Assembly: GCA_905178155.1 (NCBI GenBank)
Contig: CAJINV010000004.1
Coordinates: forward strand, 10,196,381-10,260,380
DNA length: 64,000 nucleotides
From: Amoebophrya sp. A120
Taxonomy: Eukaryota; Protista; Dinoflagellata
Direction of reading: 5' to 3'
In this document: positions 1 to 62,400 of the stretch, piece after piece
Position numbering within the stretch: the stretch's first letter is position 1
Layout: every line of letters begins with the position of its first letter
Translations under genes and position numbers: made by a program
The notes under the pieces: model-generated
Databases searched by the model: none
Told to the model about the DNA's origin: nothing
Seen by the model: the letters and a program-made list of their open reading frames with translations, nothing else

Positions 1-200
1 AACATGGGGGTTTCGGCGCTGGTACGATACTGAACTGTGAAACATTTTTTTCTCACCACGATCTCTGCCGACGGCGAAAGTTCTACTTGTGTGTGAACAT
101 ATTCAGATGAAGGTGAAGCAATCGTCTTCTAAGTTCTACTCATATCTTCCAACTATGCCCCAAATACTGTAAATCCAGTCTCAAAATTATCTCAAAACAG

Positions 201-4551: not shown

Positions 4552-4706
4552 TATGAATTGCAAAAGTATCGTACTCGCAGTAATTGCGTTTATGCATTAC
4601 AAATCTCTTTCTCAAGGTCAATCAGCATTACAAATTTAATTTGGAATGCTGGGCTAATTTGTAATGCAATTTATACTAGTACGATAGGATACTTTTGCAT
4701 TGCATA
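4552..4706. mobile_element. Introner-like TIR element, family B (155 bp); host gene unresolved
   Basis: TATGAATTGCAAAAGTATC...GATACTTTTGCATTGCATA; TSD CATGT at 4547-4551 and 4707-4711. Confidence 0.9.
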
Positions 4707-12289: not shown

Positions 12290-13524
12290 AGATGCGTGAT
12301 GAAGCGTTTTGTGTGCTTTATCATAGGCTGGCTGTTGCTTGGGTTTGGTGTGATAAATTGAGTACTCAGCTCCACGTGTTTATTCGACGTGTGCATGTTG
12401 AACATGAATGTCGGTATGCACCGCACACTGAGACTTCTGTTGACACCAATAAATGTCATGCTCTTCCTTTTCATGATGCTGCAAATAGTATCATGACAGT
12501 AAGAACTTGAACCACGATACAGAGGCAAAGCCCTTTTATTGTTCCATACTCCGGTCGCAGTCGCTATGGGTGGCAAGGCGGTGTGAAGGCGGAAGTGAAA
12601 CACGACGACGACGCGTTCTGCAAAAATGGTGTTCTTGACCATGGCGACGTGACGGATAGCGTAAAAATGATTGTTCACAATTATAAGAATCGGTGGGTTC
12701 GACTGAATTCAAAATACCGATACACCATCACGACCACATCAGAACGTGAAAGAAGAGATGAAACGAGCATGGCCGTATGGCCGATGCTAATGGACGGCTT
12801 GACACGAGCGTGGCTCTTGTGTTCGACACTCAGTTGAGTGCTGCAGGACCCGTGCTTGCTTGATTCTGTTTTTGACCTGTGTGACCTGTGAGGTAGATGA
12901 TGGTGTGATTGGCAAATTGAAGCAAGGCTACAATTTATCGTAGCTTACAAGAAATGGCACAACAATGCCGTGGGTGTGTAGTTGGCGTTTCCTTAAGAAG
13001 ATTCTTGTCTGAAGAAATTTGTTTTGGGGTTCTTTCTGCAGTGTGCTGCTAAAGAAGAAATTGCCGAAATCTCGTGAAGGTGATGGACACGGCTTCTGAA
13101 GTACTATACGCATTGTTTCGTGATCGTCTGCAGAGCGGTTTCGTTGAAGAAAAAGATGATACGAAAAAGTCATTTAGTAGATCGCGATGTCGTGCTGGTC
13201 TTGGTGGGTCTTGATCCGCAAAACAGATCGCGACACGTGAAGATGAAAATCCTGAACCTGATCCAGTCCCAGTGTCTACCTGGTGGTCGATAGTAAATGC
13301 AACATAGACATAGACATAGTAGAGCAACTGTTTGCATTATTTGCACCATCTTGTCCTCCTGCCTTTGTTTGTAAAAGCGGTCGGCGCAAGTGCAGCAATT
13401 TTTAGACCCCTAGTATAATTCGCTGTAGTGTGTGGCTCCTGGTTCTTTTCAGTGTCGTGCGTCTGGTCTGTCCAGAGGACGATGACGCGCCGGCGCCGAA
13501 GTCATTTGCACAAAAGAACAGAGA

Positions 13525-16500
13525 ATGAGGGCCCTCCGAGCAGATATTAGCACTACTAGCAGCGGCCACTTCTTATCACACGATGGTAAAACTAAAAAGT
13601 CTAGCAGCGGGCGCCATGTTCTTGACACGCGGGTCTTCATTTCCGGTGCGAAACCTTGGACCAGCAGTCTCCCGCGGGGTGGTAGGCTTCTTTTGTCACT
13701 CACGACCGCCGGAGCGCTTTTCTTCTCAGACGAGGATGCGGAGAGCGGGTGTTATTTCGGAAGCGGTCAAGAATCAGAACCGCCTAAAACTAAAACACCT
13801 AGACGACGAGGAGCTGACATGGTGTTCCATTTCGCACATGCCGCAATTTTAACATCCTCGGCACGCGGCTCAGAAAAAGTGCACGACTACCCGAGTGGAG
13901 GTAATGGTGATAAAGGCGGAGATGATACAGCAACCGGCAGTGCAAGAACTAGAGCTGTTTTTTCCAGATCAACCCAGCAGGAGTCACCTCAGCAGGGTGC
14001 CGACGCAAGCGCCAAGTGCTGCTGGGAAGAAGCGCAAACAACTGCTGGGAGTGCGGCGACTGAAAAGATGAACCCGACGCAGTTGCTAAGCGAGGATCTT
14101 CGGGAGCACCATCACCAAGCGGATAAAATTGAAAATTCGCATGCCCGAGCAAATTGGTCAGAAAAAACCTACCCCAGGAGCTGTTTGAAAGAACACAAGA
14201 ATGCAGAACCAGCCGTTACTTCGTCCACCAGCAAGAACAGCACCTCCACCACGACCGCGTCCCGCACAACTCTGGCAGCTCTGAAAAAGGAAATAACTTT
14301 CGTGCGCATCGGAACGCAGGTCGAGATTCTGGGCAGCAACAATACTCTGCAGTTTCGCGAACTGCCGGACTACAGTCCTGCAGAAGACTCCGCTCCTCGG
14401 CGGGGCGTTGGGCGGCGGAACAAAAGAAGCGGTAACTCTAAGCGATCCTCGTCTTCTGGAGCGCGTAGTGGAACAACGACTCGCTGTGAGGAAACATCCA
14501 GTTCGTCTTCTTCTTCATCCTCAACTACGTCATCCTCGGAGGAGGACGAGGAGAGCAGCGACGAAACCAGCTCGGAGTCGGACGACGGTGATTATCAAAT
14601 GCAAAAATGTCTGGGTCTGGAAGGTTGCCAGGTTTGTCATGCATATTTTGCATGACCCATGATCATGATGCTTGTAAAGCATGGTCTAGCATCACAGACT
14701 TTTGGAGGGCATCCTGTTCCTGATGCCTATTCCGCATGAGAAATGCCCTTCCGGCGTAGCACAAAGTGAGTTCCTCTTCCTGGTCATGCAATACAAATGT
14801 TCCTAGGATCCGAAGATAGCATCACAAGTTGAAACCTTCCAGACGCAGGCGTTTTTGCACTTGATAGTGATAGCATCTCATCCAACTCGACGTCGAGCGA
14901 TCATTCTGAGTCGACGACCTCAGGCGGGCGTGATAATGTCCTACCGAAGAACTCGACTTGTATTTCTGCGCCCTCTGCAGCTGGTGCTGGAACAGGACCC
15001 GGATCAACATCCAGCTCTTGTACGTCTCCTAGAGATGCAGCGCAGCAGAATTTGTATTTGCCAGGGAACAAGGAGCATGTGCATGCAGCTCAAGGACGAG
15101 CACAGAGAACCTCCGTCGTGCAGAGTTCTTCTACACCTCTTGCGCAGCTGCAGGGGACTTTCACCACGGCGGAGGTAAAACCAGCTGAGGCAGAAGGGCG
15201 GGAACTACAAACCAGTCCAGTGTTCGATGACGCCGATCGCTCGGACCCACAGCCACACAGCAGCACTCGTGAGGATCTTCGTGCTGATCGACGTGGGTCC
15301 CACCGAAGTTCACGTGGCTCCACCGCCCTTCGCCCGTCTTCAGCATTGTTGGATCATAAGTCGCAAAAAGCAGGGAGCAGTAGCAAGACTTCCGGCAACT
15401 CGGGTCAGCGCTGCAACACACCGCATCCTGGAGGCCGGGTAGTTGACAGGAGTGGTAGGAAGATGAAAGACGATGCTGCAGCTAGTAGTAGTGGAGTGCC
15501 TGCCTCTGCTGAGAGCGTCGAGTTTCTGGTGCGCGATGCAGCTGGAAATGCACGACACCCATACGAAGGCTCGACACCTTTACAAAATGAAAATGCGTCG
15601 GCAACTTATGCTGGAACTGAATTCATGCTGCAGGGATCTTACGTGCCACAGGAACCGCTCCCGATCCCCATGCCCGGTGAGAAAGGTGTTGGTGCTAGTG
15701 CTGCTGGCATGATCTCAAATGAGGTCGGTTGCTCTGGCCTGATTGCTGACGTTCTCGTACGACCATCTCCGCCCAAAGCGCCGCCCCGCGGTAGGCCACC
15801 GCGCGCTAGAAGTCGGGAAAGAAGGAGGACGTTGCCAGTCACTAGCACAACCATGGGCGGACCTGCGGGAGAGGACGGGGTTCCTTACCATCCTCCGGGT
15901 ACCGACGAGAGGCAAATCGGCTCTACTACAGGAGAAGCTCCTAATATGACTTCTCAACCATTTCCGATGCCCGACGAGCTAGAGCCGCCCCCTACCAGAC
16001 CTTCATCAAAGACGCTGGTGGGCGAGGAGCGCTCGACCCTCATTCGCCAGGGCAGTCACAAAAATGACAAAAGCGGCATAACAACGCAGCCGCCTTTGGT
16101 ACTACCACAAATGGCCGGGAACAAATCGAAAAATAAAGCTGTGAAGAAAGGCACGAAACAAGATGAGCACCGCGCAACGACAGAGGCGCGCCAAAAACAA
16201 CCGAAATCAGGTGGGGCAGCCTCTTCAAAGCGTCGAGAGGGCCCGTTGCTAGCACCGGGAAGAAGTCGTCGCGATCACACTGCTCGCAATGATGACGATG
16301 ATGACGAGCTCCTGGAAAACTTACCCAGGTTTCCGTGGTTAAATAGCCTTTGTAGCACTACGCAAGAGGGCGTTCTTGCAGTGTCCCGTGGCGCTATGGG
16401 CAATCTCGAGCGGTTTGCGACCGCCGGCTTGGGTCGTCGCGTCCATGCAAGCGGTGCGTCTGTTCCGAGTTGGCTTTCATTTAGGCGCGGATTAGCTAGT

Positions 16501-19500
16501 GAGGACGCAAGTTCGACTACTTCTCTAGAAGGGCAAAGTCATCTACAACTTCGAGAACGGAGTTGTAGTTCCAAAGACCACGGCCTTCACTTGGACGGCC
16601 ACGGAGCTCCTGCCGCCCCCGATGCTGGCGAGGACATGGATGTGGATGATGATGAGCCCGTCGTGAATAACAAGTTCACGAAGGCTGCGATTGAACGAAA
16701 TTTCCAGCAGCGCCGAGGTGGAAAGAGCCATAGCAAGCCGGGCGGCCAGAAAAGCAAGAAGGCCCTGAAACGCGAAAGGCACAGAAGAGACAGCGAAGAC
16801 AGCACGACACAGGAACAACTACTTCATCACGCTGGAGGAGCTGCTGATGGGGGCCCAAGAGCGACCTCTCTTCGAGGTGGCGGAAAAATGTTGAAAGGCG
16901 CAAACAAGCGACCACCAAAGATGAAAACTACCTCTTTTCGCCGGAAGTTCAGCTACGTGGCCATAAGCCTTGCGTGTTCCACGGTCGCCGTGGCTCGCTT
17001 GATTCACTTCTTTTACGACCTGGGCAAAGCCACCGCGTTCGAAAGTCTGTACGACCTGGGTCAAGCTGTCGCGGACGGATCCATCTGGAGTCGGAAGTCG
17101 CTCTTCGAAACAACTGCGAGGACCGGGGCTGGTGGATCTTCAGACTCGGACAACTGGCGAAATCTCAAAAACGAGCTCTTTCCAACCTTCGATTGGACCG
17201 CGGCATTGAGCAAAGAGGAGAAAGCCGCTCTATCTGACGTGCTGGTCGTCTTCGCGAGCGCGTACCAGCCCAAAGTCAGAGACACTGCTACGGCCGGCGC
17301 TGCTCGTCGTGGGGGGTCTAGTAACCTCTACGCGCCGGATGATCATGACAAAACCGGAGAGGACCCGGAGGCGTGGAAGCTGATCAGTCATGCCTACGAG
17401 CGGGCACAGGGCCTGCGGGAGAAGAAGGTCGCACTGATCACGAACCGCAAGGAGTGGCCCGACGCGAAGGCGGCCCTGGCGGGGGCTGGGTACGCCCGGC
17501 TTGTCGCGCGAAACCTGGTGGACGGAATGGTGGTCGCTGACATGTCGGCGCACGCCGCGTACCTAGGTCCGAAGACGATGGAACTCAGGCAGAAGGACAC
17601 GTTTATAGTACACGACGAGCCCGAAGGTAGAAGTGCTGGTGGTCAGATGCAAACTATCTCCAAACAAGCTGCAAAAATGTTGCTCGAGAACAGCAAGATG
17701 ATGAGAAGCGCTTCGGTAGATGAGAAAGAACAGGTTTGCATGAGCTCTATCGCACCGGCGCTATCTTCGGGCACCCCGCCGAACGAACAAGCAGGAGCGA
17801 TTACCGCAGCATCTTCATGTAGTTCATCAGCATCATCGTCTAGCTCCGCAAGCAGCGGCCATCGAAGTGCCGATACCGTTTCCCGCGAAGATGTTTCAAA
17901 ATCTGCCGGTGCGACGTCAGCAGCCCTGGAAGTAGGGCCAGAGGACAAGAAAGAAATTCTGCAGGTTGCGATGGACATCGCGAACCTTTTCGAAGGGGTT
18001 GTGGACAAAATGCAGCGCTTGTCGCTGAATAGTGGAGTAGCACGTGGTGGACCAAGTAGCAAAAGCGAGGAACAACAGGGACGACCCGGGGTGTTGAAAA
18101 GCGAATCTCAATCTTCAAAGAACCAAGGCGACGAGAAGAACAAGCCCGTTCTGGACGTTTACGTGGACGAAAACGGAAACGAAATCACTCCCAACGCGAT
18201 ACTTGCCAAGTCGAAAATTACTGACACTACTACAGACGAAATAAATCTCATCCGTCCCTTCACGAGGACTTCTCAGCCGAGCGACGAGAAACAAGAAGCT
18301 CAAGAACAGCATAGTCAACAAAGTAGAAGCCGCAAGGACACGGACTACGGCTGGATTCTGCATCCGCAGACCTACAACGCAGAAACTGGCCAGGCGAAGT
18401 GGCATTTCATTGACGTGGCCGCGGATGTGTCCTGGCACCCGCACCACGGAGACCAGCTGAAGAACTGGCGGGAACAGGGACCGGACATCGGGAATGTGAT
18501 GCCTGGCGCGTCGCACGGGTTGCTGGCGAACAGAAAGCATGGGCTTATTGGTCCGGAGGAGTTCCATGTGGTGGTTTTTGACCGCATCCGGGAAGTTTTT
18601 CTCGCGGTGAAAGAGGCAAACCAACTGCAGATCTCCAACCAGATCGCGGACTCCCTCGTCGCCATGGTGGACTTCGAGTTTCTGGGCATCCAGGCGAGAG
18701 ACGGGAAGGCAAGTACAAGTGGTGCGGGTCCACCTCGTGGGGAGCCTCTGCAGCAGCGACCGTCGTTGCAAGAGGTACTAGCTCTTGTGTAAAGAAGTAG
18801 ATGCAGTACAGCTGGTTTTACGCAAGTTTATGTCTGATGTTCCATGTTACTTTCTGTTTCATCTACATCTTCTGCACGCTGGCTGCAAACTCTTTTATAA
18901 GAAGATCTTCAGCTCCCCCTTTCTCAGGACGAGGACGAGGTCGTGCACATAGTAGCTTAACAACATCTACATCATCTTCCCAATCGATAAAAACAGCTTG
19001 CTACAGAGACCGAGCGCATTCTGGCAGCCACCCCCGCCGACCGCTCGGACCCGGTCCACCGGAAGCGCGAGTCGCAAATCGACCTCCTGACCGAAACGTA
19101 CCTGCGAAAGCTCCGTCAGCACTGCCCTATGAACTGCAAAAGTATTGTACTCGTAGTAATTGCAGTCATGCAAGACAAATTTCATTTCCAAGCTAAATCA
19201 CCATGACATATTCCGTTTGTCATGCTGAGCTAGTTTGTGTTGCAATACTACGAGTACGATACTTTTGCAATGCATATGCCCACGAAAGCTACAACTCTCT
19301 CATTTCCAGCGAGCGGCCCGGGCCCCGAGCGTGGACGATTTGTTGCGAATCATCACGGAATCGTGCTACGAAGCGAAAAGCGTTTACAGCAAGAATGTGG
19401 AGAAGAAAAGGCAGAAAAAGCAAAAAGAAAAGGAAAAAAACCTGCCTTTAATCGACTACCGGGCGAGTGAAGACAGTGAATTTCTCGAGATCGAGCAGGA

Positions 19501-22500
19501 CGAAGCGAACAAGTACGGGTTGTTAACCGACTTTGACAAGTACAACAGCCGCAAGGAATCCGACCAGAGACACGCAGATCTACTCAAGGCGCGCTTCTTT
19601 TGCCCCTTGAACTGGGACCACACGCGGTGGCTGTTGCAGTGGTCGAACAAGTTTTACAAAACGTGGAAGACAGATAGTCCGGAAAAGTATCAGCGCGTGC
19701 GGGAGAAATTTTTGAACTACGTGCAAGAAAAAGAGGCGGAATTGGCGCGGAAAGAGTCTCGCAGCATCGCGATGCAGCACGAGAAGCCCTCCTGGTTTTC
19801 CAAATACGGCCACATCGCGCAAGTGGATCCGTTTTCGCTTTTCACCACGCCAAGCCACGCTACGGGACGCCCTTATGCCATTCCGAAGATCAGCAGCAAC
19901 CCGCCGCCGGGCTGGGTGCCGCCGCCGGGGAGTGCAAGTGGGGATAGTAGCAAGTCGAAAGCTAGTTCTGTGGACGATGGCCAGCATAAAGCACCAGAAG
20001 ACGTCAAGCAGGAAGTAGAGAAACAAGACGACAAGACCAAGGCACGACCAGGAGCTACAACGACCTCTCCTACTCCCCCCTCCTGCGCCACTACCGTTAC
20101 CAATGTGTTTCTGAAGGGTCTCCCGTCTTTTATCCCGGAGTTTGCGCCGAAAATCCGAGACGGAAAGATTCTCGACTACGAGTACGACTTGCAAGTGTGG
20201 CTGAAGGCGTTTGAGGCACCTATGGTCGAGCTGCGGGAGCGGATTTTGGACTTGCTGTTCTTGCCAGTAGAGAGAGATAATCAACAACATCATGTGAAAA
20301 ATTCTGGAGTTGACCCATTCGGCGGCGACAATATCAATGCGAGAAGAAGCACAACCGCACAGCAGAAAGACCCGGAAGAACATCAAACAGAGCGGATTCG
20401 AGACATGTGGCGGCAAATGCTTTCTGTCAATGCGTATCAAAAGCTGGTTTTTTGGCACAAGGCGATTTCGCAGCTCTGGTTCCGAAACAGCAAGTGCTTT
20501 TCGGTTGCTGGGTTTCGCAGGGTGTTTCTGACGGTGGCGCACTCCGCGATGCCCGAAGTAGTGCAGGTGCACTACGTGAAAGGTGGACAACAAGGATCTA
20601 CTTCCCGCACGGCAACGAAGCGCAGCGCAACACCGGAGCCCGCCCCTACAGGCGGCCAGCGAGATGAGGAGGAAAGCAGCGGCGATTCCACCTCCATCTT
20701 CGGATCCTGGAGACGCAGAAGAGAAACTGCTGCTCGAGCAGAAAACGAAAATCGAAAGAACAACCACCAAGGTGGAAAAAGTACAATTTCTAAGCCATCC
20801 TTCGATAAAGTCCACTCCTGTCTTGCCGAGCACGCGTACAAGGACGGGTCCGTGCCCCGCGACCGTTTCATTCGGCTTCCCGTGCAGCAAATCATGCACC
20901 AGAAGATCCAAAACCCCACGGACTTTGTGATGCTGCACAGCGATCGGAAAGACTACATTCTGTTACCCTCCCGGAACCGAAAAGTCAGCATCACAAACGA
21001 TATCAAGACGCCGAACATGGACGACACGAACTTTCTGAGGATCTACCTCCCGGAGTACCTAGTCGACGGCCCGCTGCAAAAGCCTGACTTACTCGCGGTC
21101 TTGGGACTCTGTGACGGCAGGCAGGGGGTGCTGGGAAATTTAAACGCACACAGGTTGGAGGTGAAGGCGTATTCATCGAGTGGGTCGTTCGCGTCATCGA
21201 CTTCTGGGGCTGAGCTGTTGAAAAAGTTGAAAAACGTGGCGAAGAGCGAGATGACCTGTGTGGGGAAACTGCCGACGGAATTGGGTGGAGGTTCTTGCAG
21301 CAGTGGCGGAGGAGCGAAAGGCAAAGCGAATCCAAAAAATATTCATATTGATGATGATCTATGCAGCTCAGCTCCCCACGAGAAAAACAAGGTGGAAATG
21401 TACGCCCGACCCTGGCGGAGCTACGACGCTTCGCAGATAAAAAACCACGGGATCTCCGCTTCCGGGGACGAAATTCACGAAGACCATGGTACTGTGGAGA
21501 GCTCCAGCGTCGTTGCCGTGACGAACACGAGAACTGACTCGGAGTGGGTGTCTATCCAAGGCAAAAGTATTCACATACCCGTACTAGCTGTAGTCGCAAT
21601 ACTGCATGATAAATCTACGTTTCTTGGCTGAAACAGCATCACAAATTCCATCTTTCTATCTGAGATGAAGATTTGTGATGCAATTACGACTAGCACGATA
21701 GCAGGACGAGACTTTTGCAATGCATAGTGTTACTTTACGAGCAGTTCCCTGACGTCTGCGACCGGGACGAAACGATATGGTTTTCAAAAATGTCTGGGTC
21801 TGGAAGAATGCAAGATTTGTCATGCATACTGCTCATGACCCATGATGCCTGTAATGCATGACCTAGCATCGCAGACTAGACTTTTAGAGGGCTTCCTGAT
21901 GCACCTTCCGCATGAGAAATGCCCTGTCCGTGCAGCACAAATTGTGCCCCTCTTGCTGGTCATGCAATGCAAATTTTTTTAGAGTCCAAAAACAGCATGG
22001 CAAGTTGCAATCTTCCAGACCCAGACACTTTTGCATTTGATAAACGACTATCGGCGACGATCCGCTGGCCGGCACGAGTCATTTGCTCGTGGGCGAGGCC
22101 CACGCGGACAGAGTGCGGTGGGTCGTGGAGCATTTGCGAGCACAGGATGTAGTTGATGGTGACTCTGACATCAAGCAGGGGTCCGCTCAACATACGTCGG
22201 CGTCAACAAAGCAGGGAAATTCAGCAGAAACAAAAGCAGAAGATACGGAAAGTAAAACAGGGGATCACTCCGATTTCGTTCCGCCCGCAGACTTCGTTTT
22301 CGACCACGCGACGTATCTGAAGCGGCACGTGTGGCAGAAGACCCGCACCGAAGTTACTCCACAGCCGGAGTTTGCAATGTTTCAGAAACCCGTAGCACCG
22401 GCAGGCAGGACTTCTACCAGGGATCATCATGAAGATCATGCAGGGGGCAGTGGTCGTGAGAAAACATCAACCGGTCGTCCTCGAGATGACCAACACGATG

Positions 22501-25500
22501 AACAAAAACCGCCCTTCGCCCAGCCGCTCCCAACTAGCTCGGACTACGCGAATTCCCTCATCGTTCCCGAACTCAGCCCCTACGGATTTCGGTGGCTTTT
22601 ACTCGAAGCGAGCGTGGCAAAAGTCGGCGCAACGTCTACCTACGAGCAGATGCTGCAAGACGTCGAAGATCCTGGAAACAAAACGAGCGTAGAAGAGAAA
22701 ACCCATGATCTCCCGACAGGCAGCACAGCAACCGACAGTGAGATGTTTCTACGCCAACTGCCTGAAGGCCAGAAAGTACAGGCGGAGTGGGAGCTGGAGC
22801 AGGTGAAAAATTTGGAGAACAACGACCAGATTTTCCAGCTGCAATCTGAAACCCTCCGCTGGGTGTTTCTGTTCTCTCTGGAATTAGCAGCCGTTCTCGA
22901 CTCCGATTCGCCTTCCGGAGGGAATAGTGGGTGGAACTCGAAGAGTAGCTCCGACGCGAATTTTCTTGTGTTTGACGATGTCTTCAAGTTCGTATGCAAG
23001 AAAAAAACTGTGTTAGTGTAAGTCTTTTGGGAAAACAGCATCACAAGTTTGTCTGCTATGACAGGCCAAACTTGTTATGCGCAGACACGAAGGGAAAATA
23101 CATAGGAAGCGAGCCGATCATGCATGTCGAGCATCACAAGTGTAACTGTAACTGTTTTGCATTTTCTGCATCACAGATTTACGCTTACACAGTTTTTTTT
23201 TTTGCATAGTTCGCGATGGCGCACTACTACGGGTCCATGGACGAAATGATCCGGCGTCACGCGGAAATGGTGAAAGCGGACCCGCAGATGAAGGAATCCG
23301 GTTTATTAGACTACAAGTTCATCGCCGACCCCTGGAGCAACGCGATGAGGATGAATTTACAGATGGGAATTATAAGCGACGGCGCAACTGGTGCGGGCAG
23401 TATGCCGGCAAATGGGAAGTGGAGAAACATGTTTCACACGCTGCTATATCAACTGCAAAAATGTCTGGGTCTGGGAGATTGCAACTTGTCATGCTGTTTT
23501 TGGACTCTAAAAAAACTTGTATTGCATGACCAGCAAGAGGGGTGTAATTTGTGCTACACGGACAGGGTATTTCTCATGCGGAAGGAGGTGCATCAGGAAG
23601 CCCTCTAAAAGTCTGCGATGCTAGGTCATGCATTACAGGCATCATGGGACATGAGAAATATGCATGACAAGTCTTGCACTCTTCCCGACCCAGACACTTT
23701 TCCATTTGATATGCTATGCGCGCAAGCGGCTTTGCACGCAACCATCGCGGTGCAGAACCACGCGAGGCCGAACCTGTTTCTCATGGACTTCTACGGATTG
23801 TTAACCGGCAGCGCGTCGAAAATGGATGTGGATGTTGAAGATGGGGGAGAAGCGGGTGCTTTTGGGCGGGATCAAAACAGTGGACCACGAACTGACAGTG
23901 CTAGTGCCAAGACGAAAAAAACAACAAGCAACGCGGAACAAAAGGAGAAAGAGCAAGACAGTAGAACTTCTTCCACGCAGGAGGACCAGGACGTCTTCTA
24001 TGCCAAGGAAACAACTTCTGCGGGTGGCGTGTTCTATGCGAAGCAAAGTTCTATTTCCCCAGGTGGGAACAATGCTGACCACACCGTCGCTGATCCACCA
24101 CCACACGTGCCCCTCGCACCACCCAATATTGAGATGTACAGGAGCGAAAAGGATGTGCTGATCCAGCGGCAAATGCAGGAAATGTTCCAAACCGGCACCT
24201 CCACGAACACAAATAGCCGGGGGTCGTGCAGCAAGTGCAGAGGGATAAAGGGTACTAGACAAGGCAGTGACCACGCTCATGGTCGCGGCCCTGGTGGTGT
24301 TCTCCCCTCAGCGTCCTCGTGGTCTGCTGCTTCCGCGGGAGGAGAATCGTCGATAATGATCTCTTCCGCCGAGGGTTTAGCCCGTTTGAAACAGGAAGCT
24401 GCACTCTCGCAGTACGACAACGCTGGAGCAGATGCAGAAAGAAGACAAATATTAAACCAGCAGGAACAGCAGCAGCAGCCCGCCCAACAGGCTACTTTTC
24501 ACTATGACGAAAGAAGCCCCCTCCCCCAGCTCGGCGGCGCGCAGCTGATTTGGTCTGCGATGGTGCGGCAGGTGGACACCGTGTATGCTGTGCAAAAGTA
24601 TCGTACTCGTAGTAATCGCAGTCTTGCATTTACAAATCTCTTTCGCAAGGTGAATCAGCATGAGAAATTCCATTTCTCATGCTCAGGACATTTCTCATGC
24701 GATTTCTACTAGTACTACGATACTTTTGCAATGCATACCGTGGACACCAACACGATCTTGAACATTTTTGAGCATATGGCGTTCTCAAACGTTACATTCT
24801 CAACTGTTACATGAATTTGTGATGCAAAAATGGCAAAAGTGAAAGGAAGGACCTTGCGCGTCTTGCATGACAGATTTGGCGCAGATTCTCAGCCTGTTTG
24901 GCCGTCTGAGAATTTGTCATGCGAAGCAGCTTGATGGCGTTGATAGTCAAGGTAATTCCGCATGACAAATGCATGATGGGCTTTAGTCGCGCAGTCTGTT
25001 AAGCATGACAAATCATGTAACAGTTGAGAATGTAACAGTTGAGAGCGCCATAGAGCAGGAATACCAAGTCGAGCCGGTCTATGGGGGTGTCAGGATTGAA
25101 ATCGACAAAGTTGAAATAACTTGTAACGCATAAAATGGATGAAATAAGTTAAGTTGTACCCAGTTTCCAAGTGGCGCATGACAAATTTGGCTAGAACCGA
25201 AATCCAATTTGTCATGCTGTTTGGGGACAAGAGGTGTCTTTTGTCGTGCTACTTTAGCAGCTCTATTGCAGACCCCGAGCCGGCTGACAGTCTGCCTCAC
25301 TTGCCATCCCTGCAAGAGAGGCACTTCATGCCTTGCAATTTATGCATGAGAAATTATTTCAACTCTCACTTTGTCGATTTCAATCCTGACACGTCTATAC
25401 GGTCGGTTCCGCGTGGGAGATCCGCGCCAGTCTGGCATCGTGGCGAACGGTTTCGGGTTTGGACAAAGTGCCGACCGTGCGAAGTTCCAGTGCGCAAGAC

Positions 25501-28500
25501 ATGCAGACGACGGTGGACTTCTGGTGGGATATGGAACTGTCAGGATTGAAATCGTCAGAGTTGAAATAGTTTGTCATGCATAAAATGCAACGCGAAAATG
25601 CCTGTCTTGCAGAGTAGGCAAGGGAGGCAGATTGTAAGCCTGTTTCGGGGTAGAAATAGAGCTCCTAAAGTAGCATGACAAAAGGCGTCTTCCTTACCCA
25701 AACAGCATTACAAACTGGATTTCGGCTCTACTGAAATTTGTCATGCGCCGCTAAGAAATTGGGCTTCCAACTGGTATCGATTTTATGCATTGCAAGTTTT
25801 TCAACTTTGTCGATTTCAACTCTGACACATCCATATGGGACTTTCAGCAGGTAATGCGCGTGATCATGTTCGATTACATTGTGCAGACGGAAGGAATAAC
25901 GGGAAAGAAGAACACTGCTGGTGGTGCCCCCGGACCTGCTGCAAATAAAAAATCCACTTCAAATTATAGACACGAAGTCCCGACTTCCCTCACCGCCAAC
26001 GCTGCCGCAAGGCACACCGCAACGAGCAACATAAACCGGGTGAAGCAGCGTCTCGACGGCCGCGGGGATGATGAAACCGCGAAAGCGCGACTCCGAAGGC
26101 CCGTCGCACACTGGCCCGGCGGGAAGGACTGGCCCTACTCCCGACAGGCCCAGGACAGTCGCTCCCACATGTCGCGGCCGACTTTCTTCACGGCAACGGC
26201 GAAAACGGGAACGGAGCCGGTCCCCGGCCCGGACATCTCCGACTTTTACAGCAAGGGCCGGCTGGTGTTGCAAATCGCGCCATACGAATTCGGGTTCTTG
26301 TTGCAGACCGGCACGCGGATTGTGCACTACGCGAACTTTTTCTACGACGTCATGCGGGATTGTGGGTTGCAAACCTTCCCCGCCGGGCCCTTCAACATCA
26401 AACCGGGTCGGGCGAGAAAGAGTGCAACTAAGGCGGCGACGAACAAGGGGGTTCAGCAGCACGACGAAGCACACGACGAGGAGAAAACGTCCAATGGCGA
26501 AGATCATAGCGATTCTGATTCAAACAGCCAACAGCAGGCAAACGCAAAGACTAAGACATCAAGCAAAACTGTTAAAAATAACCGAAGAACAACTACATCC
26601 GCCGAGGGCTGGGAGTTGGAAAACCTCGCCGTAGCGAGCGAGAATCCTCCGAAAACGGCTAGAGGTGCAGACATGGACTTCTGGTACCGGAGCACGCGAA
26701 AGGCGAACTTTCTGTTCCAGAATATGATCCTCCTATGAGAGTGCACAACTCCCCCTCCCCCTCATTTGTGTTGCATGAACAGCAACGCAAGCGCTGGCAA
26801 AGATGCTGCTTTTGCATAACAAATTGTTCCTGGGTGATTGTAGTGCTGTTTTGGCTTTCGGAATCTGTCATGCAAAGAGTGCTAACAGGCAGAAGGTAGA
26901 TTTGGGATTTTGCATGACAAATGAGGGGGAGGCGGAGTTGTGCACTGTCATACCTCCCCATCATCCCGCACTTCTCCGTGGACATCCGCAGGATCTTCAA
27001 AGACTACTTGGTCGATGCTATCCTGAGGAAAAACGTTCCCACCCCATAGAAGTCAAGATGGGAAATCTGCTAGACAAATCTCCAAGTTTTGGGAGTTGCG
27101 CATGACAAGTCCTCTGCCTCTGCGTTGTAGTGCTGGAGGTTAGCAAGGGAAGCTGCATGCGAAAGCCATTTCCTCATCCTGTTTACAGCATTACAAATTC
27201 CAAAACACGACTGGAAATGCCTCTCGTCATGGAGCTGCGCATTACAAACGTTCCTGTCATTGCGCATCTGCATGACAACGCTGGGGAGGTGGGGACGTTT
27301 TTAGACAGGATAGATGCCCGGTGTGCTGACACCGTGGTTCGGACAAAGAATCTGAACAAGATTCACGACGCAGCGAGGAGGATGGCAGCTGCGGGGTGGA
27401 CAACGAAAGAACGTCGCACCGGTACTGGACGAAAAACCTCTTCGTCCAAGGATCTTCTACTTCCTGAGTTCCGACTGAAGGACAGTTGCTTGCCGCGTCA
27501 CATCAACCAGGCGCTGGTGAACTTGCTATCGACCATCACTTTTCCGGTTTCTCCCGTCGCATTATGGGAGCTCCTCCACGTTGCCATCGACCTGGTGCAT
27601 GACATGGAGCACTATTGGCTGCCGCCCTTTCATATCAAATGTAAAAATGTCTGGGTCTGGAAGAATGCAACTTGTGATGCAATTTTTGGAATCCAAAAAA
27701 ATCTGTATTGCATGAGCAACAAGAGGCGTCCAGGTTTTGCTCCGCGGAGAGTGGATTTCTCATGCGGGATAGGCATCAAGATGCCCGCAAAAAATTTGTG
27801 ATGCTGGTGCATACATCACAGACATCACGGGTCATGCAAAATGTGCATGACTAAACTTGCAATCTTCCAGACCCAGACATTTTTACATTTGATATTTCAG
27901 ATCATGGAGATTTTGCAATCTACAACTTCTTCTGACGCGGAGGGTAATAAAGACGAGCAGGGACGAAATAGCGGAAATGCAGCGCAGGGGAGTAATGATG
28001 CTGGAAGCAGTTCTAGAAGTCCTCGTGGTGAACAAAAGAAATCGACAGCGACTGGGCGCTCGGATGCGTACGAGACGGTAAGTGATAATTGTGTGCGTGA
28101 TAGTGTTTTTGCTTTAGCCTTTGATATAGGGCGAGAGACGTGCAATTTCCTTTTCAATAAAGTGTAGCAGTGCAAATGCAAAACTCGACGATTACAAAAG
28201 AAAACCAAACATACAACCAGCTCTGGACTCTGGAGGAGATGTATTGGATTCGTTTTCGCACGGCTTTGATCCGTGTCGCCATGCACGCAAGGGCGGGAGA
28301 CGAGGTGCGCGGGATTGGTAGACTGTGCTGGAACATGGTTGCGGGGAAAAATGGCGAGACCGTCGCGAAGCCCGAGATTGAGCTGCTGTCGACGGCGGAG
28401 GAGGTGGAGAGAGCGATGCAAGGAAGTACTAGAATTGGTTCTGATACGACGAAAAAAGCGGGCGCCCCCGAAGGACAAGTTCGAGAACAACCTAAATATT

Positions 28501-28994: not shown

Positions 28995-30317
28995 ATCGTT
29001 GAAAAATATTAACGGCGCACAATGTTACTAACGCAGCTACTGACAATTTTTCGTTTTCGAGTTGCTGTGCCGTGAATCTGAGCTCGATTTTGGTTTTATG
29101 AATGTATCATGCCAATAGAACGAAGTACAAACAACGGGCTTATATATCGTGGTCCCGTATTGATTGACTCTATTCGTACCTTTTGGTCATTTCGAGAATA
29201 CAGATCAGTTTTAGTTTTCTGACGACAGAAAAGTTATGATGTACTCTGACCGAAGCAAGAACATATGTGCAACTTGTACTTGTTGACTTGTTGATCATAT
29301 TTGCGCTGAGCTCTCACTTACTTCCACTTGAGAACACAGCAAAACGCATTTTTCTGAAATATTTCTGAGCATCAGCGACAGACAATTTTGACTTTTGGTT
29401 TTGTGTACACATGATATCCTCATGTTTCCTTCCTGAACTTCTACTCGCGCCAATACTAAGTAAATCATCATGTGGGTGCGTCGCTTGTCTGCAGCATCAT
29501 ACGAACGCGAAAAGGATTTTTTGTTGATGTTGTCGAAATGCACCCGAAGTCAGCTGTTGAAGAAAACTGCGACAGGGCACGAAGATCCCTGGCACCAACA
29601 TCAAAACGCAGCACATCCTGGTGTTGTTCATCGCTTCATCTTTTTTTTTGTCTTCACGCCGACAGGTTTGCATTGTTTCTTTGGAGGATTGTATTCAATT
29701 GAATTTGAAGTCACATGCTTTTCGTTTTCAAACACCATTTTATTCTTATTGCACCGGGCTCGGACAACATTCATCGACATTTTCCAAATGCCATATTTCT
29801 ATTTAGTAGGAGGTCGAAATAGGTGTTTATCAAACTGATTTTGATCGAGAACAAAAGCTTTCTCATTTTAATAAGTACCTGTATACTTTTGCATTGATCA
29901 TCGCGCTTTTTTTTGTAAGAACAAGAACTGAATTTCTTCTATCTCAAGAGCTCACTTATACTTTAACTTTTTCAACTAAACTTGTACTTGATCATCTTTT
30001 TATAAAATGTTATTCTTGACTGCGACGCTATTAAGGCGCTATTGAGTCATCTCGCCCAATATGATATTGTCATATCCATCACATTCCACCTTCCTCCACC
30101 AGCCTTACTTTGGCGCGTATTTTGCCGGACCGGACGAATCACGAAGGACGACGGAATTTTTATCCAAAGACATTCCGAAAAGATGAAAATCTGCGAGCAG
30201 CACCGGCAAATAACAAGCGGTTACGGTAGCTAACAGGCAAAATAAAACGTAAATGTGACCACAAGCTGCAGCAGCGCCTCCACTGACTAAACGCTTCTTA
30301 CTGACATCTTCACGAAG

Positions 30318-33300
30318 ATGCTAGCAAGGAAACGAACGGGCTTGATGATGCACCTCCGTCCGGTTCTTACTTGTTTCCTCTTGGTCGCCATCGGCTGCAG
30401 CACGTTTTATTCCCCGCCAGTCCGAAGTGCAGGTGCAGCGCGCAACTATCAACAAGCGCAAATAAATCCGGATGATTCCTTCAGCTCCGCCGCGGTCGGG
30501 CCCGATGTGGATCGCCGCGGGGCGATGATTCCCTTGAACCCAGGGATAACAGAGAACGACCTTTTGCAAAACCCAGATGCGGTGGAGGAGCACGTCGTTT
30601 TTCCCGCGCCGCAAACGCAGCAGCCACCGCAAACAACCGTGATTCGCAATATTTCGCAGTTTCGGGCACGGCAGTTTTTCGGAGGTGGTGCTGCAGGAAG
30701 CGGTGGTCAACAACAACAGCAGGTTGTACAGCGCGAAGCGTCAGAACGCGGCATGAACGCCTACCAAGCAACTACCGCAGTCGAGAGTAATGATCAAGCG
30801 GAAGCGAGTGCGCAAAACCAACTTTTGGCCCGCCGAGGACGGCGGGGTGTAGTAGGAGGAGCTGCTGCTGCCGCAGGGGGAGAGGCGACTGCAACACGAG
30901 CAGACCGAGCAGCGGCTGCAACTCCCGCTAGTGCAAGAGGACCGCCGCCGAATAGGGGATCAACATCTACTTCGCAGCAGGCACAGCAGCTTCAGACGCA
31001 GAGGCCGCTGACCGCACGGGCAGAATCTTCGCCCGGTTCTAGTACTTCTGCACCCAATGCTAGGGCGACGTCCACCTCGTCTTCTGCATCGTATCCCGCA
31101 TCAACATCACAAAACGCACGTCAACAAATTCCGCTTCTGGCCCCGGCGCCCCCGAGCCCGATTATACGCCCATCACAAGATGACCAGCGTAGTATTGACG
31201 ACGGAACGTCGCAACCAGGAGCAGAACTAGGGCGGCGAGGAACTGGCACGACCCATACCGCCGCCCAAAATCGCGGAAGGTCGAGGCCTACTGGTGTAGG
31301 AGGAACCACAAGAACGAGGGTGCCAACCACAGAGGACACTGTCGACCTCCACCTGCCTCCTGCGATCGAAAATATGCTGGCGCGAGCAAAAGCGCCACCC
31401 GGGCGCCCCAACGCGCCGAGGCGACGGCCGCAGCCGTCTAGTACTTCTAGAGGCGCTGGAAATGACGACGCCGCCGCCCAGCAGCAAGACCGCGGGGGCA
31501 CAAGCTCCGGCTGGCGCAGGGGATGGACAGGCGGGTTGCGAACTGCGGAGCCCACCATGTTGACCAGTGCCGCTGCAGCTTCAACATCTAATTCCAGTGC
31601 TGCGGGCAATTATCCAGGCACAACGGCGATGGGAGAGACGGGCGAGACACCAGGTGCTTTTTACGCGGGGGCTGTAGCGTCGGTCTCAGGAGGACCAGCA
31701 GCGGGGGTTTCGTCTGGGCTGTCGTCCGGCTCCAGCAGTGCAACAGCCGCGGGGGCGTCAATCCCAGAACAAACGTCCCTGCCTTCCGTCGTAGCACCTC
31801 CGCCAAATCGAAGAGTGGGGGGAACTACTAGCACAACTTCCGGGGAGCAGGCAGATGCAGGGACAGCGCCACCGTGGTCAACATCCTCGCAACCGCAAGC
31901 ACAGGAGCTGCACCAGGGGAATGCTGAAGCTGCTGCAGCCCCGCGCATAGGGACTGCCCGGCCAACCTCTACGTCCCCCCAACACCCCCCGCCACCTCCG
32001 GAGCAGCTACCGCCGCAACGCCGCGAGAGACCGGTCTCTTCCATCGGTACGACGGTCTCGACCTCTTCCGGCAACAGTCAGCAGAGTGGCTGCTCGCCGG
32101 CGGAAGATACTAACACCATCCGCCTTCCCGGTGTGGTCGCCCGGGGGACGAGCGGCCTTGGTAGCGGCACCGCCGCGGCGCCCCCGTCCGTCGGGGCTGT
32201 GACCCCGTTCGGCCTCGTTGCCGAACGGAGCGGCCCACACGAGCTGGAAAGCCATGCGCCTCTAACGTACTCCTCAACCGAAATGACAATGTCAAGACAA
32301 TACCTGTCCTCCGAAGAATCCAGCCTGCAATTCAGCCCCGCGCCCAGCTCCTCGTCCTCCAAAGGGTCGTCGATTGTGGGCAACAATTCGAACATCACCA
32401 TATGCATTGTTCCTGAAAATAAAGTTTTCTTCTGTCGGACGCGTACCAAAAAGAGATATCAAATGTTCACACTTACAGTCGTGCTGGGTATACGCATGAC
32501 CAAGCTCTTGTTCATTTTCGACCTGACGATGACCCAGCATACTTAATGAATTGCACAAAGATAAAGAACCATTGTTTCAATTTGAGAAACTCAAAGTTAT
32601 ATTGCGACTTCATGATCGATATAGTACGTAACTACATCGATAAAAATATAAATACTTTTGCAATGCATACACCACTGACCAAAGCAATCTCTCCCTCTCC
32701 GCTCCTTCGGACGCGGAAAACCTTCTAAAATTAGCCGAGCTGCAGCAGTGGGGGCGCGGGTTGGCGGCCGAACAGGTCGAGTACAATAAGCGGAGGGTGG
32801 GGCGACAAGGAAAAGAAGATGCTGGGCCGCCCGAACTGTCGTCTAAAGGTAGTAAAGAAACATCATCGAGCAAAAAGAGCAGTCGCGGCAGCAGCAAAGA
32901 TAAAGAAGCCGAAGCCGTTGTAGTGCAACAAGCAGGGTTGACCACAGCGGTAGCTGCTGCATCGGGAATGAACCAACGCAGGAACCACGAAAGGCAAGAA
33001 CATGAACAGAAAAGTCTCGAGCGAGAACCACCTAATCATGCAGTTGTTATGTACCATAATCCAGAACACGATCGCTGGAAATCACCAACGCCCTTTCCTG
33101 TAGATAATTCGAGAGCTACGGATCCATACGACTATTACCTACACGACAGTTGTCCTCGTGTAGAATTATCGAGCAGCGGCGCACGAAATACGAATAACCC
33201 GCTTGTTTCTCGCACAACCGGCGTTGGACAACATCACACGACATCGTCAATCGTTTCTGAACGTCGTCAATACCAGGTTCTCACCGAGGACCGGCTGAGT

Positions 33301-36300
33301 TACGTAAACACGCACGGGGAAGATCAAGATGCGGACCGCAGTGGGAACTCGTGTTGCGAGGACTCGTCGTGCCAAAGCACTGCAGACAATGGCTCGTCGA
33401 CCGGCGGTGGATTTTCATTTTTTGGCTCAACAGCTTCTGAGACCACGACCCCATTACATTACACACGGGCGGGAAGGGGAACAGCAACAACCAGCGACGA
33501 GACCAGCGAAGAGACCGCCACTCCAGGAGGTTTTGTGCAGAACACGGAGTCGGAAAAGTCGAGTACTGTGATGACTCGGAAAAAAATAGCTGTGATTGCA
33601 GGACGAGTCGGAAATGGTGATATCGACGGAAGATCAACATCAAATGCAGGCAACACCAGCAACCAGTCAACGACGACCGGGACATTAACTAAGAATAATA
33701 TCGACTTGACGAGTCTGTGCTCAAGTGGTCACACCGACACCACGATGGACACCCCGAATCTCGGTCCGTGTCCTCACGAGCCAAAAATCGTCCACACACC
33801 GTTGTCCTCCTCCTGTTCTCGCTCTGGTTCGCTTGACAACAGCAGCATGGCGATGACGCCGCGCGCGGGGTCGACTTCCGGAAGGGCGCCGCCCTCGTTC
33901 AACCTCGGCGCTGCGGCAGTTGGCGTTGATGTCTACTCACGAGCTTGTAGTTCGGCTGCGGGCTCCTTGTCTGTCGGGCTGCCCTCTTGTTCTGCCAGTT
34001 GCGCGCCCACGCCGGTCGTGAACCGACCCTCGGTTGGCTCGTCGGCGGCGTCCAGCTGCATTTTTGACGGCGGTGGTTACTTTGCTGGTGCTGGTGGTGC
34101 TGGGGGAGGTACGAACTTTCAACATCATGAGCATCTTCACCATCATCCGGAAAAGTTGTACGACACAACCTACAACAGTCAAATTTTGCTCCAACCACCG
34201 GTTGTTGTGGACGGAGTGTTATTGGTGCCCCAACTACAGGAAAACCAACAAGCCGAAAGTTCTTGTGCAGCGGATCCGGATCCTCGCCAGCACAGTCACA
34301 CGTCTTTCAAGTCCGCCGCAGATTCTCTATCCTGCCGACAGGAGAAACAGCAAATCTCCGCGACCACGGCGGCGGAAGCGCAAGAGGACGCCGGCGGATC
34401 GTCACCGTATGGCGTTCTCAACTGTTACATTCTCAACTGTTACATGGATTTGTGATGCAAGAATGGCAAAAGTGAAAGGGGTCACCTTGCGCGTCTTGCA
34501 TGACAGATCTGGCAAAGATTCTCAGCCTGTTTGGCTCTTCGAGAATTTGTCATGCGAAGCAGCTCGATCGTGTCAATTCTGATTGTGATTTTGCATGACA
34601 AATCATGTAACACTTCAGAATGTACCATTTGAGAACGCCATACACCGGTGGATGTGGATGTGGAAATACAAATGGACGAAAGTGGGGCCGAAGATGAAAA
34701 TAAAGACGATGCAACATTTGAGGATAGTGCCGCGAAAATGCACCAATTGGCCCAGCACCTGGAGACGCTACTTGTCGTGGGGAATAGTAGGCACCACCGC
34801 CAGGGGGTCGCAGCACTCGCAGCGGAAAATGTGAATGACCGCAACTACATCAAGATGCGAGAAAAAGCACCTGGAGCCGCGGGTCGCGCGGCGTCGCCCA
34901 CCGAGCAGAACAAGAGGCAGCAGGAGGATGAGAAAAATAAAGCACCAACACCGACGGTGAGCAGCAGTTGTCCACCAGATGCTGGATCCCAGCACCAGCA
35001 CAAAAGAGAACGAGAGCAAAGACAAGGGTCGAAAAGTGGCGTAAGACCTCCCTCGGCAAAAAAGACGCATCGTCGCACGGCGTACCAAACCCCTGCAACT
35101 TCACCCAAGAGTGGCGCTGCGGAAGCACGAGGACCAGATGAGACGCACGGACCGCGACCTCAAGGTCAAGGGAGTAATTCTGTTGGCGCTGGTGCTGCCG
35201 AAACTTTTGTTGAAAAGGATCATCCACCTGGTGCAGAAGTAGTTGTAGATCGGCCCCTTGGTGGTGCTGGTCGTGCACGTGAAGAACCTTCGCGCCAGCC
35301 AGGTCACGCAGAGCGAGTAGAACCTCCTGCAGCTGCACCGGTTTGGGCGTACACTCCGGGGCAAGCCAGCTCTAGCGGGTTAGGCGCAGAAGAACGACAG
35401 CAAGGGCCGCGAATTGTGCAAGAACATCATGCTGTTGATCACTTTTACAATACACTGCAGACAACTGGACGAGCCAATGAAAGCAACTCTTCGGGAGTAG
35501 GACCTCCTACTTCCAAAAGTAGACGACCCCTAACAGCAGGAGGCGCACCAGGCGGAGCGCCGCGCATGAGCATGGATGCCTCCCCTACCGGCGCGTCGGT
35601 CGAGGTTGAGGACCGAGCGGAGTCGGAGGATGTTGTGGCTGATCTTGCGTTGCAAATGCGAATTACTGGTATGTTTGATCATCATCATGATGGTAGTACT
35701 CCGGGACAAGAACATCATCAAGTCGTGACCGAAAAATTTACAACTTCCGGAAGTAGTTGTCACACGACAAACGATGGAAGTGACAACTCGCAGCGACCGC
35801 GGCAGTTCACGCAAAATGACAAGCGCAGTTTGTATGGAATCGGTAGTGCTGCTTCACATCATCATCATGGTGCAGTTCTTTATTCCCACCCGTCGTCATC
35901 GCCCCCGACCGCAGAAGACAACGAGCAGCACCAGCAGGCCGCCGCGGCCAGGAAGAGCATCGATGAGCTGATGATGCAAGTCCCGACCGCCGCATACGGA
36001 GGCATCGGCGTTGGGTCACCCTTGACTGCAGTGCGTGCGGGGAAACGGCGCACGAGTGCTGGTACCAGTGGAAGTTCAAACGACCACGACGTGAGGACTG
36101 GCACAGGGGCGGGGGCGGGTTCAGGCGCAAGAAGTAGAACTGCTTCCAAGTCGAGCTCCTCGAAATTCCACTCTACGCAGGGGCAGAGTGGAAAGATGTT
36201 TCAAACTGGTGCTGACGTGGGATCGTTATCGTCTTCTCCATCTGCCACGGTCGGCGTACCAGGATCAGGAATAGGAATTGGAGTTCCAGTACAACATCAA

Positions 36301-62163: not shown

Positions 62164-62292
62164 CCCAATTTCAAACGGTGATCGAGATTCGGTCAAGAAG
62201 TTGGTCCAAAATCGGTCCGGACACAGATTCTAATATACGGACCGAATTTGGACCAATTTCTGACCGAATCCCGATCACCGTTTGAAATTGGG
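62164..62292. repeat. Long imperfect inverted repeat (arms about 56 bp, loop about 18 bp)
   Basis: CCCAATTTCAAACGGTGATCG...TCGGTCCG / CGGACCGA...CGATCACCGTTTGAAATTGGG. Confidence 0.9.
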
Positions 62293-62300
62293 GGATGGAC

Positions 62301-62400
62301 TCGATCGCCGTTTGAAAATCTCGATCACCGTTTGAATATCTCGATCACCATTTGAATATCTCGATCACCATTCGAAATTCCCGATCCCAGTTTGAAATTG
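62301..62400. repeat. 20-bp minisatellite, 5 copies (TCGATCACCGTTTGAAWATC)
   Basis: Exact 20-nt period read directly; unit matches the arm of the adjacent hairpin. Confidence 0.9.

What the first reader, a model, noticed from the sequence alone, without database searches (positions are those of the whole stretch)
21776..23711. Same element inserted in both orientations within one gene, frame restored either way
Seen: family A copies at 21776 and 23447 are reverse complements across their interiors. The same holds for family D (25080 vs 25530), E (26734 vs 58408) and B (24584 vs 49777). All the host genes are on the + strand. Known: spliceosomal donor, branch point and acceptor signals are strand-asymmetric. 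Inference: removal depends on symmetric features (TIR stem, TAT/ATA ends, direct repeat) rather than a directional branch point, or it happens at the DNA level.
Basis: partly seen in the sequence, partly recalled or inferred. Interest (0 to 1): 0.8.

Follow-up and report, generated by a model that had tools for sequence, protein, structure and literature searches.

The report
Mobile introns removable in either orientation
Small transposon-like inserts sit inside genes of what is likely a marine parasitic dinoflagellate, facing either way and mostly without normal splice signals; this intron class is already described, but its indifference to direction suggests the cell likely cuts the inserts out of the RNA by their mirror-image ends.

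Summary
Observation confirmed. 21776-22042 matches the reverse complement of 23447-23711 (interior 170/190 against 113/204 forward), and the B, D and E pairs are also opposite. The window holds 29 catalogued elements bounded by TAT...ATA, with terminal inverted repeats and a 5-bp target-site duplication. Removing each element plus one duplication opens frames of 1,675 to 3,567 codons on the + strand. The anatomy matches the published non-canonical introner elements of Amoebophrya A120 (Farhat 2021), so the class is known. In a related Amoebophrya assembly, both orientations restore the frame alike (24/28 and 20/22), nearby canonical splice pairs occur at chance level, and copies interrupt invariant motifs of RPB1, ABCF and ABCG, where only exact removal fits. 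I found no report of orientation independence for these non-canonical elements; it is known for introners with canonical sites. No RNA reads were seen. Best reading: RNA-level, end-defined splicing, likely by a U1-less spliceosome. The scan noted similar hairpin introns in other genomes, none on orientation.

The parts
21776..22042 (+). Family A element, orientation 1, 267 bp, TAT...ATA, duplication AACGA at 21771-21775 and 22043-22047; positions 4-9 of the 5' arm do not pair with the 3' arm
   Evidence: no in-frame GT/GC-AG pair near its ends
23447..23711 (-). Family A element, orientation 2, 265 bp, duplication TGCTA
27633..27894 (-). Family A element, orientation 2, same gene, duplication TTTCA
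25080..25399 (+). Family D element, orientation 1, duplication CGGTC
25530..25835 (-). Family D element, orientation 2, same gene, duplication TGGGA
24584..24737 (+). Family B element, orientation 1
49777..49939 (-). Family B element, orientation 2
26734..26952 (+). Family E element, orientation 1
58408..58627 (-). Family E element, orientation 2
18991..28167 (+). Host frame 1: 2,070 stop-free codons after removal of 12 elements (19128, 21553, 21776, 22993, 23447, 24584, 24775, 25080, 25530, 26734, 27019, 27633); exons as short as 22, 32 and 44 nt; no family or homologue found for the exons tested
   Evidence: searches
19128..19276 (+). Family B element, orientation 1
21553..21726 (.). Element with B-like ends, duplication with one mismatch, interior unassigned
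22993..23208 (.). Element single in the window, with relatives in the related loci
24775..25052 (+). Family C element, same orientation as 34408-34642
27019..27312 (.). Element single in the window; its family occurs in both orientations in the related loci
13486..18792 (+). Host frame 0: 1,675 codons after removal of the family A copy 14593-14866 (orientation 1)
30291..38998 (+). Host frame 2: 2,674 codons after removal of 32401-32669, 34408-34642 and 36711-36874
42850..58780 (+). Host frame 3: 3,567 stop-free codons after removal of 10 elements, with family A in both orientations (53055 and 54881 orientation 2; 56019 and 58098 orientation 1). The first ~200 nt of the frame lie inside another repeat (42319-43051)
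45275..48248 (-). B-type ends with a CGGAT duplication around a nested insert of about 2.8 kb that includes an assembly gap; its removal joins the frame
4552..4706 (+). Family B element with no long host frame; likewise 11689-11950 and 12029-12183

Best explanation
These inserts have mirror-image ends and a 5-bp duplication, lie in both orientations inside genes, and are likely non-autonomous DNA transposons of the Amoebophrya A120 introner type that are likely removed exactly from the pre-mRNA by end-defined splicing, probably on a modified spliceosome. Step 1 (anatomy shown, enzyme inferred): a transposase acting in trans inserts the element at a site of no fixed sequence, either way round, duplicating 5 bp. 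Step 2 (predicted): in either orientation the transcript folds a 25-40 bp stem that brings the two ends close and shows the same UAU...AUA termini. Step 3 (net result inferred from frames and orthologues, chemistry untested): cut and join fall inside the duplication, so the element plus 5 nt leaves and the old coding sequence returns whatever the register. Step 4 (inferred): the stem and termini stand in for U1 and the AG rule, while the symmetric subterminal GCAUGACAA-type motif could supply a branch adenosine in both orientations.
For: Exact removal opens the window's frames. In the related loci it is the best removal length for 49 of 55 and 31 of 32 elements with long flanking frames, and with frames called independently on each side 58 of 64 are in frame, 24/28 in one orientation and 20/22 in the other, Fisher p 0.68. 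Family A copies found without requiring a duplication have an exact 5-bp one in 119 of 134. In RPB1 (L029) three elements, two of them family A orientation 2, give gap-free joins against 12 orthologues, in the DTAVK-TSETGY and GTIA-AQSVGEP motifs, while each of the five nearest canonical alternatives listed per element adds or deletes residues. In ABCF (L071) seven elements align without gaps at the junctions to the A25 orthologue; one family is in both orientations (200 same; 87 and 86 opposite), and 5 of the 7 have no exact canonical register. In ABCG (L046) an orientation 1 copy splits LSGGE-RKRL, nearest canonical option -1 residue. Only 13 of 103 copies offer an exact GT/GC/GA-AG register, and near pairs match simulation: 23 vs 23.1, 38 vs 42.9, 70 vs 70.9. 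Nested inserts of 0.7 and 2.8 kb are tolerated. Both focal copies fold far below shuffles, z -8.1 and -10.0. Published for A120: RNA-seq-supported non-canonical introns, U1 not found, U2/U4/U5/U6 present.
Against: No RNA reads were examined. There is no sign of selection on a sense-strand RNA stem: G-U vs A-C mismatches 93:86 (p 0.65) and sense more stable than antisense in 57 of 102 (26:19 and 16 of 28 in the window). The predicted stem of 21776 starts at element base 10 and leaves the termini unpaired. The branch-like motif is no better kept at the 3' end than its mirror at the 5' end (p 0.52) and is missing from the -25 to -70 zone in 5 of 6 family B copies, so it may be only a transposase-binding repeat. 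Exact GT/GC-AG registers are slightly above chance (11 vs 6.3, P 0.025), so a minority may splice canonically. The window's own exons gave no homologues, so its host genes and its species are inferred. No transposase was found.
Confidence: 0.55

Rival explanations
1. Removal is at the RNA level and exact but not spliceosomal: a nuclease and ligase read the stem and termini and release a circle, as proposed for euglenid nonconventional introns.
For: Near mirror symmetry of the two ends; no conserved branch motif in family B; exons as short as 22 nt in the window and about 11 nt in L071; euglenid stem-closed introns leave as circles without lariats (review section).
Against: Canonical GT-AG introns sit in the same genes (three in L029) and A120 keeps nearly all spliceosomal proteins; Fritillaria transposon-derived non-canonical introns are spliceosomal. 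No such enzyme was looked for here.
Confidence: 0.28
2. An ordinary spliceosome uses cryptic GT/GC/GA and AG sites in the inverted repeat, duplication or exon, leaving small in-frame scars, as in Polarella and Aureococcus introners.
For: Family A arms carry GT at +16 and AG at -18, a 13-residue scar that is open in 23447 and 27633; 13 of 103 copies have an exact canonical register; both-orientation introners of this kind are published.
Against: No in-frame GT/GC-AG pair exists near 21776 or 54881 (GA donors were not tested there); near pairs are at chance level; scars would break invariant RPB1, ABCF and ABCG motifs.
Confidence: 0.06
3. The elements are cut from the DNA of expressing nuclei, like ciliate internal eliminated sequences.
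For: It needs no strand-specific signal, which fits the symmetry; the ends look like transposase substrates.
Against: The class was defined by RNA junctions against genomic DNA; a second assembly keeps the elements in RPB1; copies have diverged by about 10-35% and so persist; no separate germline nucleus is known in this parasite (recalled). Stage-specific DNA was not tested.
Confidence: 0.06
4. The inserts are not removed in vivo: hosts are dead genes, and published junctions are reverse-transcriptase jumps across hairpins at direct repeats.
For: Hairpin plus direct repeat is the known recipe for such artefacts (recalled); the window's hosts have no homologues.
Against: Frames of 1,675-3,567 codons carry no other break; RPB1 and ABCF with elements stay 86% and 93% identical to Amoebophrya orthologues in the exons searched; retained elements carry stops.
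Confidence: 0.03

Closest known systems
Introner elements among the non-canonical introns of Amoebophrya sp. A120 (Farhat et al. 2021, PMC7789003; sections 10-12, 16, 32, term passages and supplement text read; figures not held)
   Same: Inverted repeats starting TAT, seven variable bases, then a run of A; direct repeats at the borders; mean length near 240 nt; many families; mostly non-canonical borders; hosts without annotation.
   Different: The paper's four uses of 'orientation' concern genes, not elements. Here the duplication is a constant 5 bp directly outside TAT/ATA, the arms run 25-40 bp, and orientation independence is measured.
Amoebophrya A120 introner families in Gozashti et al. 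2025 (PMC12130899; section 6, passages and 19 of 58 rows of supplementary file 8 read)
   Same: TIR DNA families of about 149-340 bp with roughly half non-canonical annotated sites; one family given a 5-bp duplication by manual inspection.
   Different: No orientation statement in the main text for these families or in 12 of 14 supplements searched; no sequence match to named families was possible.
Both-orientation introners of Polarella glacialis and Aureococcus anophagefferens (Roy et al. preprint 10.1101/2020.10.14.339549; passages read)
   Same: Transposon-derived introns created by insertion in either orientation.
   Different: Those recruit GT/GC/GA and AG from a constrained duplication or the element end, with a bias to one orientation; here the duplication has no sequence rule and most copies have no canonical register.
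Euglenid nonconventional introns and Fritillaria non-canonical introns (review PMC11282704, section 6 read)
   Same: Likely MITE origin, inverted ends, duplication at the junction, non-canonical borders.
   Different: Other lineages and other end motifs; euglenid introns leave as circles, Fritillaria ones by the U2 spliceosome; which applies here is untested.

Membership tests
Amoebophrya A120 introner elements | Inverted repeat beginning TAT + 7 variable bases + at least three A | tested here: met
   Base counts of 103 copies; families C, D and E depart from the A run
Amoebophrya A120 introner elements | Direct repeat of 3-5 nt at the borders | tested here: met
   Exact 5 bp in 119 of 134 family A copies found without that filter
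Amoebophrya A120 introner elements | Repeated families, about 240 nt, no coding capacity | tested here: met
Amoebophrya A120 introner elements | Mostly non-canonical borders | tested here: met
   13 of 103 with an exact canonical register; this assumes exact removal
Amoebophrya A120 introner elements | Absent from mRNA (RNA-seq junctions) | not tested
   No reads seen; indirect support from frames and orthologues
Amoebophrya A120 introner elements | Host is Amoebophrya | tested here: inconclusive
   Met for the related loci (best hits AT5.2 and A25); for the window only through shared element families at 74-97% identity
MITE (non-autonomous TIR DNA transposon) | Terminal inverted repeats, fixed-length duplication, both orientations, also outside exons | tested here: met
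   one copy lies inside a canonical intron of L029
MITE (non-autonomous TIR DNA transposon) | Cognate transposase with the same ends | not tested
   No genome held; the long elements found were not searched for a transposase
Canonical-site introners (Polarella, Aureococcus) | GT/GC/GA and AG supplied by element end or duplication in every copy | tested here: not met
U2-type spliceosomal intron | Lariat at a branch adenosine | not testable with these tools
   Only a candidate symmetric motif
DNA-level eliminated sequence | Absent from somatic DNA | not testable with these tools
   Two assemblies keep the elements; no stage-specific DNA

The most novel reading that the evidence does not exclude
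Amoebophrya has evolved a strand-blind splicing route that reads transposon ends, not splice sites: any element with TAT...ATA inverted ends and a 5-bp duplication is cut from the RNA in either orientation with a sliding junction inside the duplication and no branch point, which makes a whole transposon class harmless anywhere in a gene. The excess of silent differences between the two duplication copies (9 of 14) would then mean that either copy can end up in the mRNA.
Probability: 0.25. Interest if true: 0.85.

Novelty: already known. Interest (0 to 1): 0.45.

Why it matters
How Amoebophrya removes tens of thousands of non-canonical introns without a detectable U1 is an open question in the papers read. 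Orientation independence narrows it: every needed signal must exist on both strands. Opposite copies in one transcript (21776 and 23447; ABCF elements 2, 3 and 6; RPB1) are ready-made internal controls for lariat or circle mapping. It also gives gene finders a simple rule for this lineage: remove TAT...ATA plus one 5-bp duplication.

Tried and rejected
A splice pair inside the family A arms (GT +16, AG -18, 13-residue scar) was rejected as general: it is listed as open for 23447 and 27633, but 21776 and 54881 have no in-frame pair at all. An apparent bias for G at position 4 of the 5' end seen by eye in the window vanished in the larger set (21 vs 17). Selection for a sense-strand stem was not detected. 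The duplication-length count was circular and was redone without the filter. A 92% match between window 42318-43051 and L076 first looked like an orthologous gene but is another repeat, so no empty orthologous site was found. No Pfam family for 16 of 17 window stretches (reading frames of those references were checked for only some), no homologue for two exons of host frame 1 (one search covered only 553-2,000 residues), no Rfam match. Ten family A copies with altered ends gave coding scores too weak to say whether TAT/ATA is required. Literature searches that found no statement on orientation of these elements: with term look-ups. Huff 2016 and Henriet 2019 were seen only as cited by others; figures and two supplements of PMC12130899 were not seen, nor the preprint's supplements.
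Full report
Observation. The focal pair is real. 21776-22042 aligns to the reverse complement of 23447-23711 at 238 of 270 columns against 182 of 284 forward, and with 40 bases trimmed from each end at 170 of 190 against 113 of 204. The D, E and B pairs are also opposite, B least strongly. I catalogued 29 elements in the window, each bounded by TAT and ATA, with inverted arms mostly 25-40 bp long and a 5-bp duplication directly outside, exact in 25. Family A has four copies in each orientation; B, D and E have both; the two C copies agree.

Frames. Removing each element plus one duplication gives stop-free + strand frames at 13486-18792 (1,675 codons, 1 element), 18991-28167 (2,070, 12), 30291-38998 (2,674, 3) and 42850-58780 (3,567, 10). 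For the second, no excision gives 800 codons, other uniform removal lengths 776-888, and 1 of 2,000 random mod-3 choices reaches 2,000. All 23 retained elements tested meet a stop inside the element. This shows insertion into genes that have stayed intact. It does not by itself show splicing. The exons tested from the focal gene have no Pfam family and no homologue.

A larger sample. A 22-base motif from the family A arm found 133 loci, all in one assembly, out of about 260 stretches estimated by a scan that stopped early. They hold 300 distinct elements, with none in shuffles of 40 loci that really hold 130, and share most window families at 74-97% identity. Two conserved genes there have Amoebophrya proteins as best hits: RPB1 86% to AT5.2 and ABCF 93% to A25. 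The window's own species is inferred from these shared families and from the published A120 motif. Among family A copies found by arm homology alone, 134 of 153 had both termini at the expected place and 119 of those 134 had an exact 5-bp duplication. Of 250 elements scored, 64 had clear coding signal on both sides with frames called independently; 58 were in frame after exact removal, 24 of 28 in one orientation, 20 of 22 in the other and 14 of 14 unassigned. The other 186 were dropped for weak signal.

Canonical sites do not explain it. In 103 host-oriented copies (26 from the window), 13 offer an exact GT/GC/GA-AG register against 5 on the other strand. Against simulated insertions, near in-frame pairs are at chance (23 vs 23.1, 38 vs 42.9, 70 vs 70.9, 96 vs 96.5), with a small excess of exact GT/GC-AG registers (11 vs 6.3, P 0.025). 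The duplication has no sequence rule and the two ends mirror each other. In RPB1, exact removal of three elements gives gap-free joins against 12 orthologues in near-invariant motifs, and each listed canonical alternative changes the length; two of these are family A in the orientation of 23447, one with a nested insert of about 0.7 kb. A copy in the orientation of 21776 splits the ABCG signature. In ABCF seven elements within about 250 codons join without gaps, one family in both orientations; two of the seven happen to have an exact canonical register.

Mechanism. The data say removal is exact, depends on the ends and ignores orientation. They do not say how. Both focal copies fold strongly (z -8.1 and -10.0), but that follows from the inverted arms; there is no excess of G-U over A-C mismatches (93:86) and no sense-strand stability bias (57 of 102), and in 21776 the predicted stem leaves the termini unpaired. 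All families share an internal repeat, about 28-fold enriched; a copy with a U-n-A-C core lies 35-54 nt from the 3' end in 69 of 103 sense copies and 73 of 103 antisense readings. Differences between the two duplication copies are silent in 9 of 14 cases among 109 elements, against 24-30% for random changes (p 0.002-0.008) and 33-46% for a fixed register with constrained exons (p 0.02-0.13): a weak hint that the junction slides. I rank a modified, U1-less spliceosome guided by the stem and termini first (0.55), because canonical introns share these genes and A120 keeps most of the spliceosome; a nuclease-ligase route second (0.28); cryptic canonical sites and DNA excision low (0.06 each). No RNA or DNA reads were examined.

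Comparison. Farhat et al. 2021 (PMC7789003) describe this class from RNA-seq junctions, with the TAT + 7 + AAA motif and direct repeats, and leave the mechanism open; their uses of 'orientation' concern genes. Gozashti et al. 2025 list A120 TIR families of matching sizes. Introners that work in either orientation are published for Polarella and Aureococcus, with canonical sites, and Gozashti et al. 2022 allowed for opposite-orientation copies in their method. Seven literature searches found no statement that the non-canonical Amoebophrya elements work in both orientations; subscription papers, figures and some supplements were out of reach.

Verdict. A true observation on an already described class, adding one useful and apparently unreported constraint and good test cases for an open question. 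Interest 0.45.

Noticed in passing
window 42319-43051; L076:495-1214: A 720-733 bp repeat, 92% identical in two places, with short subterminal inverted repeats, a GC hairpin near the 3' end and no 5-bp duplication, resembling a Helentron-type element (label recalled). In the window it interrupts the frame upstream of host frame 3; both copies follow a G, which makes a GT donor.
   Followed up: partly
window 45275-48248: B-type element holding about 2.8 kb of repeat-rich nested DNA; the 136-nt direct repeat at 45480 and 46310 flanks an N gap and may be an assembly artefact.
   Followed up: partly
window 21776, 54881, 58098: Positions 4-10 of the arm vary as a block and some family A copies carry caps like those of family B, suggesting exchange of ends between families.
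   Followed up: partly
L023, L047, L094, L109: Four family A copies have TGT in place of TAT at one end, the terminus typical of integrase-like transposons (recalled); with the 5-bp duplication this hints at the mobilising enzyme.
   Followed up: partly
L071:843-2917: Seven elements in about 250 codons of an ABCF gene, with exons down to about 11 nt.
   Followed up: yes
window 117-3965: 1,282-codon frame with a CRAL/TRIO domain near its start, free of elements.
   Followed up: no
window 62164-62400 and 62905-63573: A 20-bp tandem array with inverted copies, and other inverted repeats not of the TAT...ATA type.
   Followed up: no
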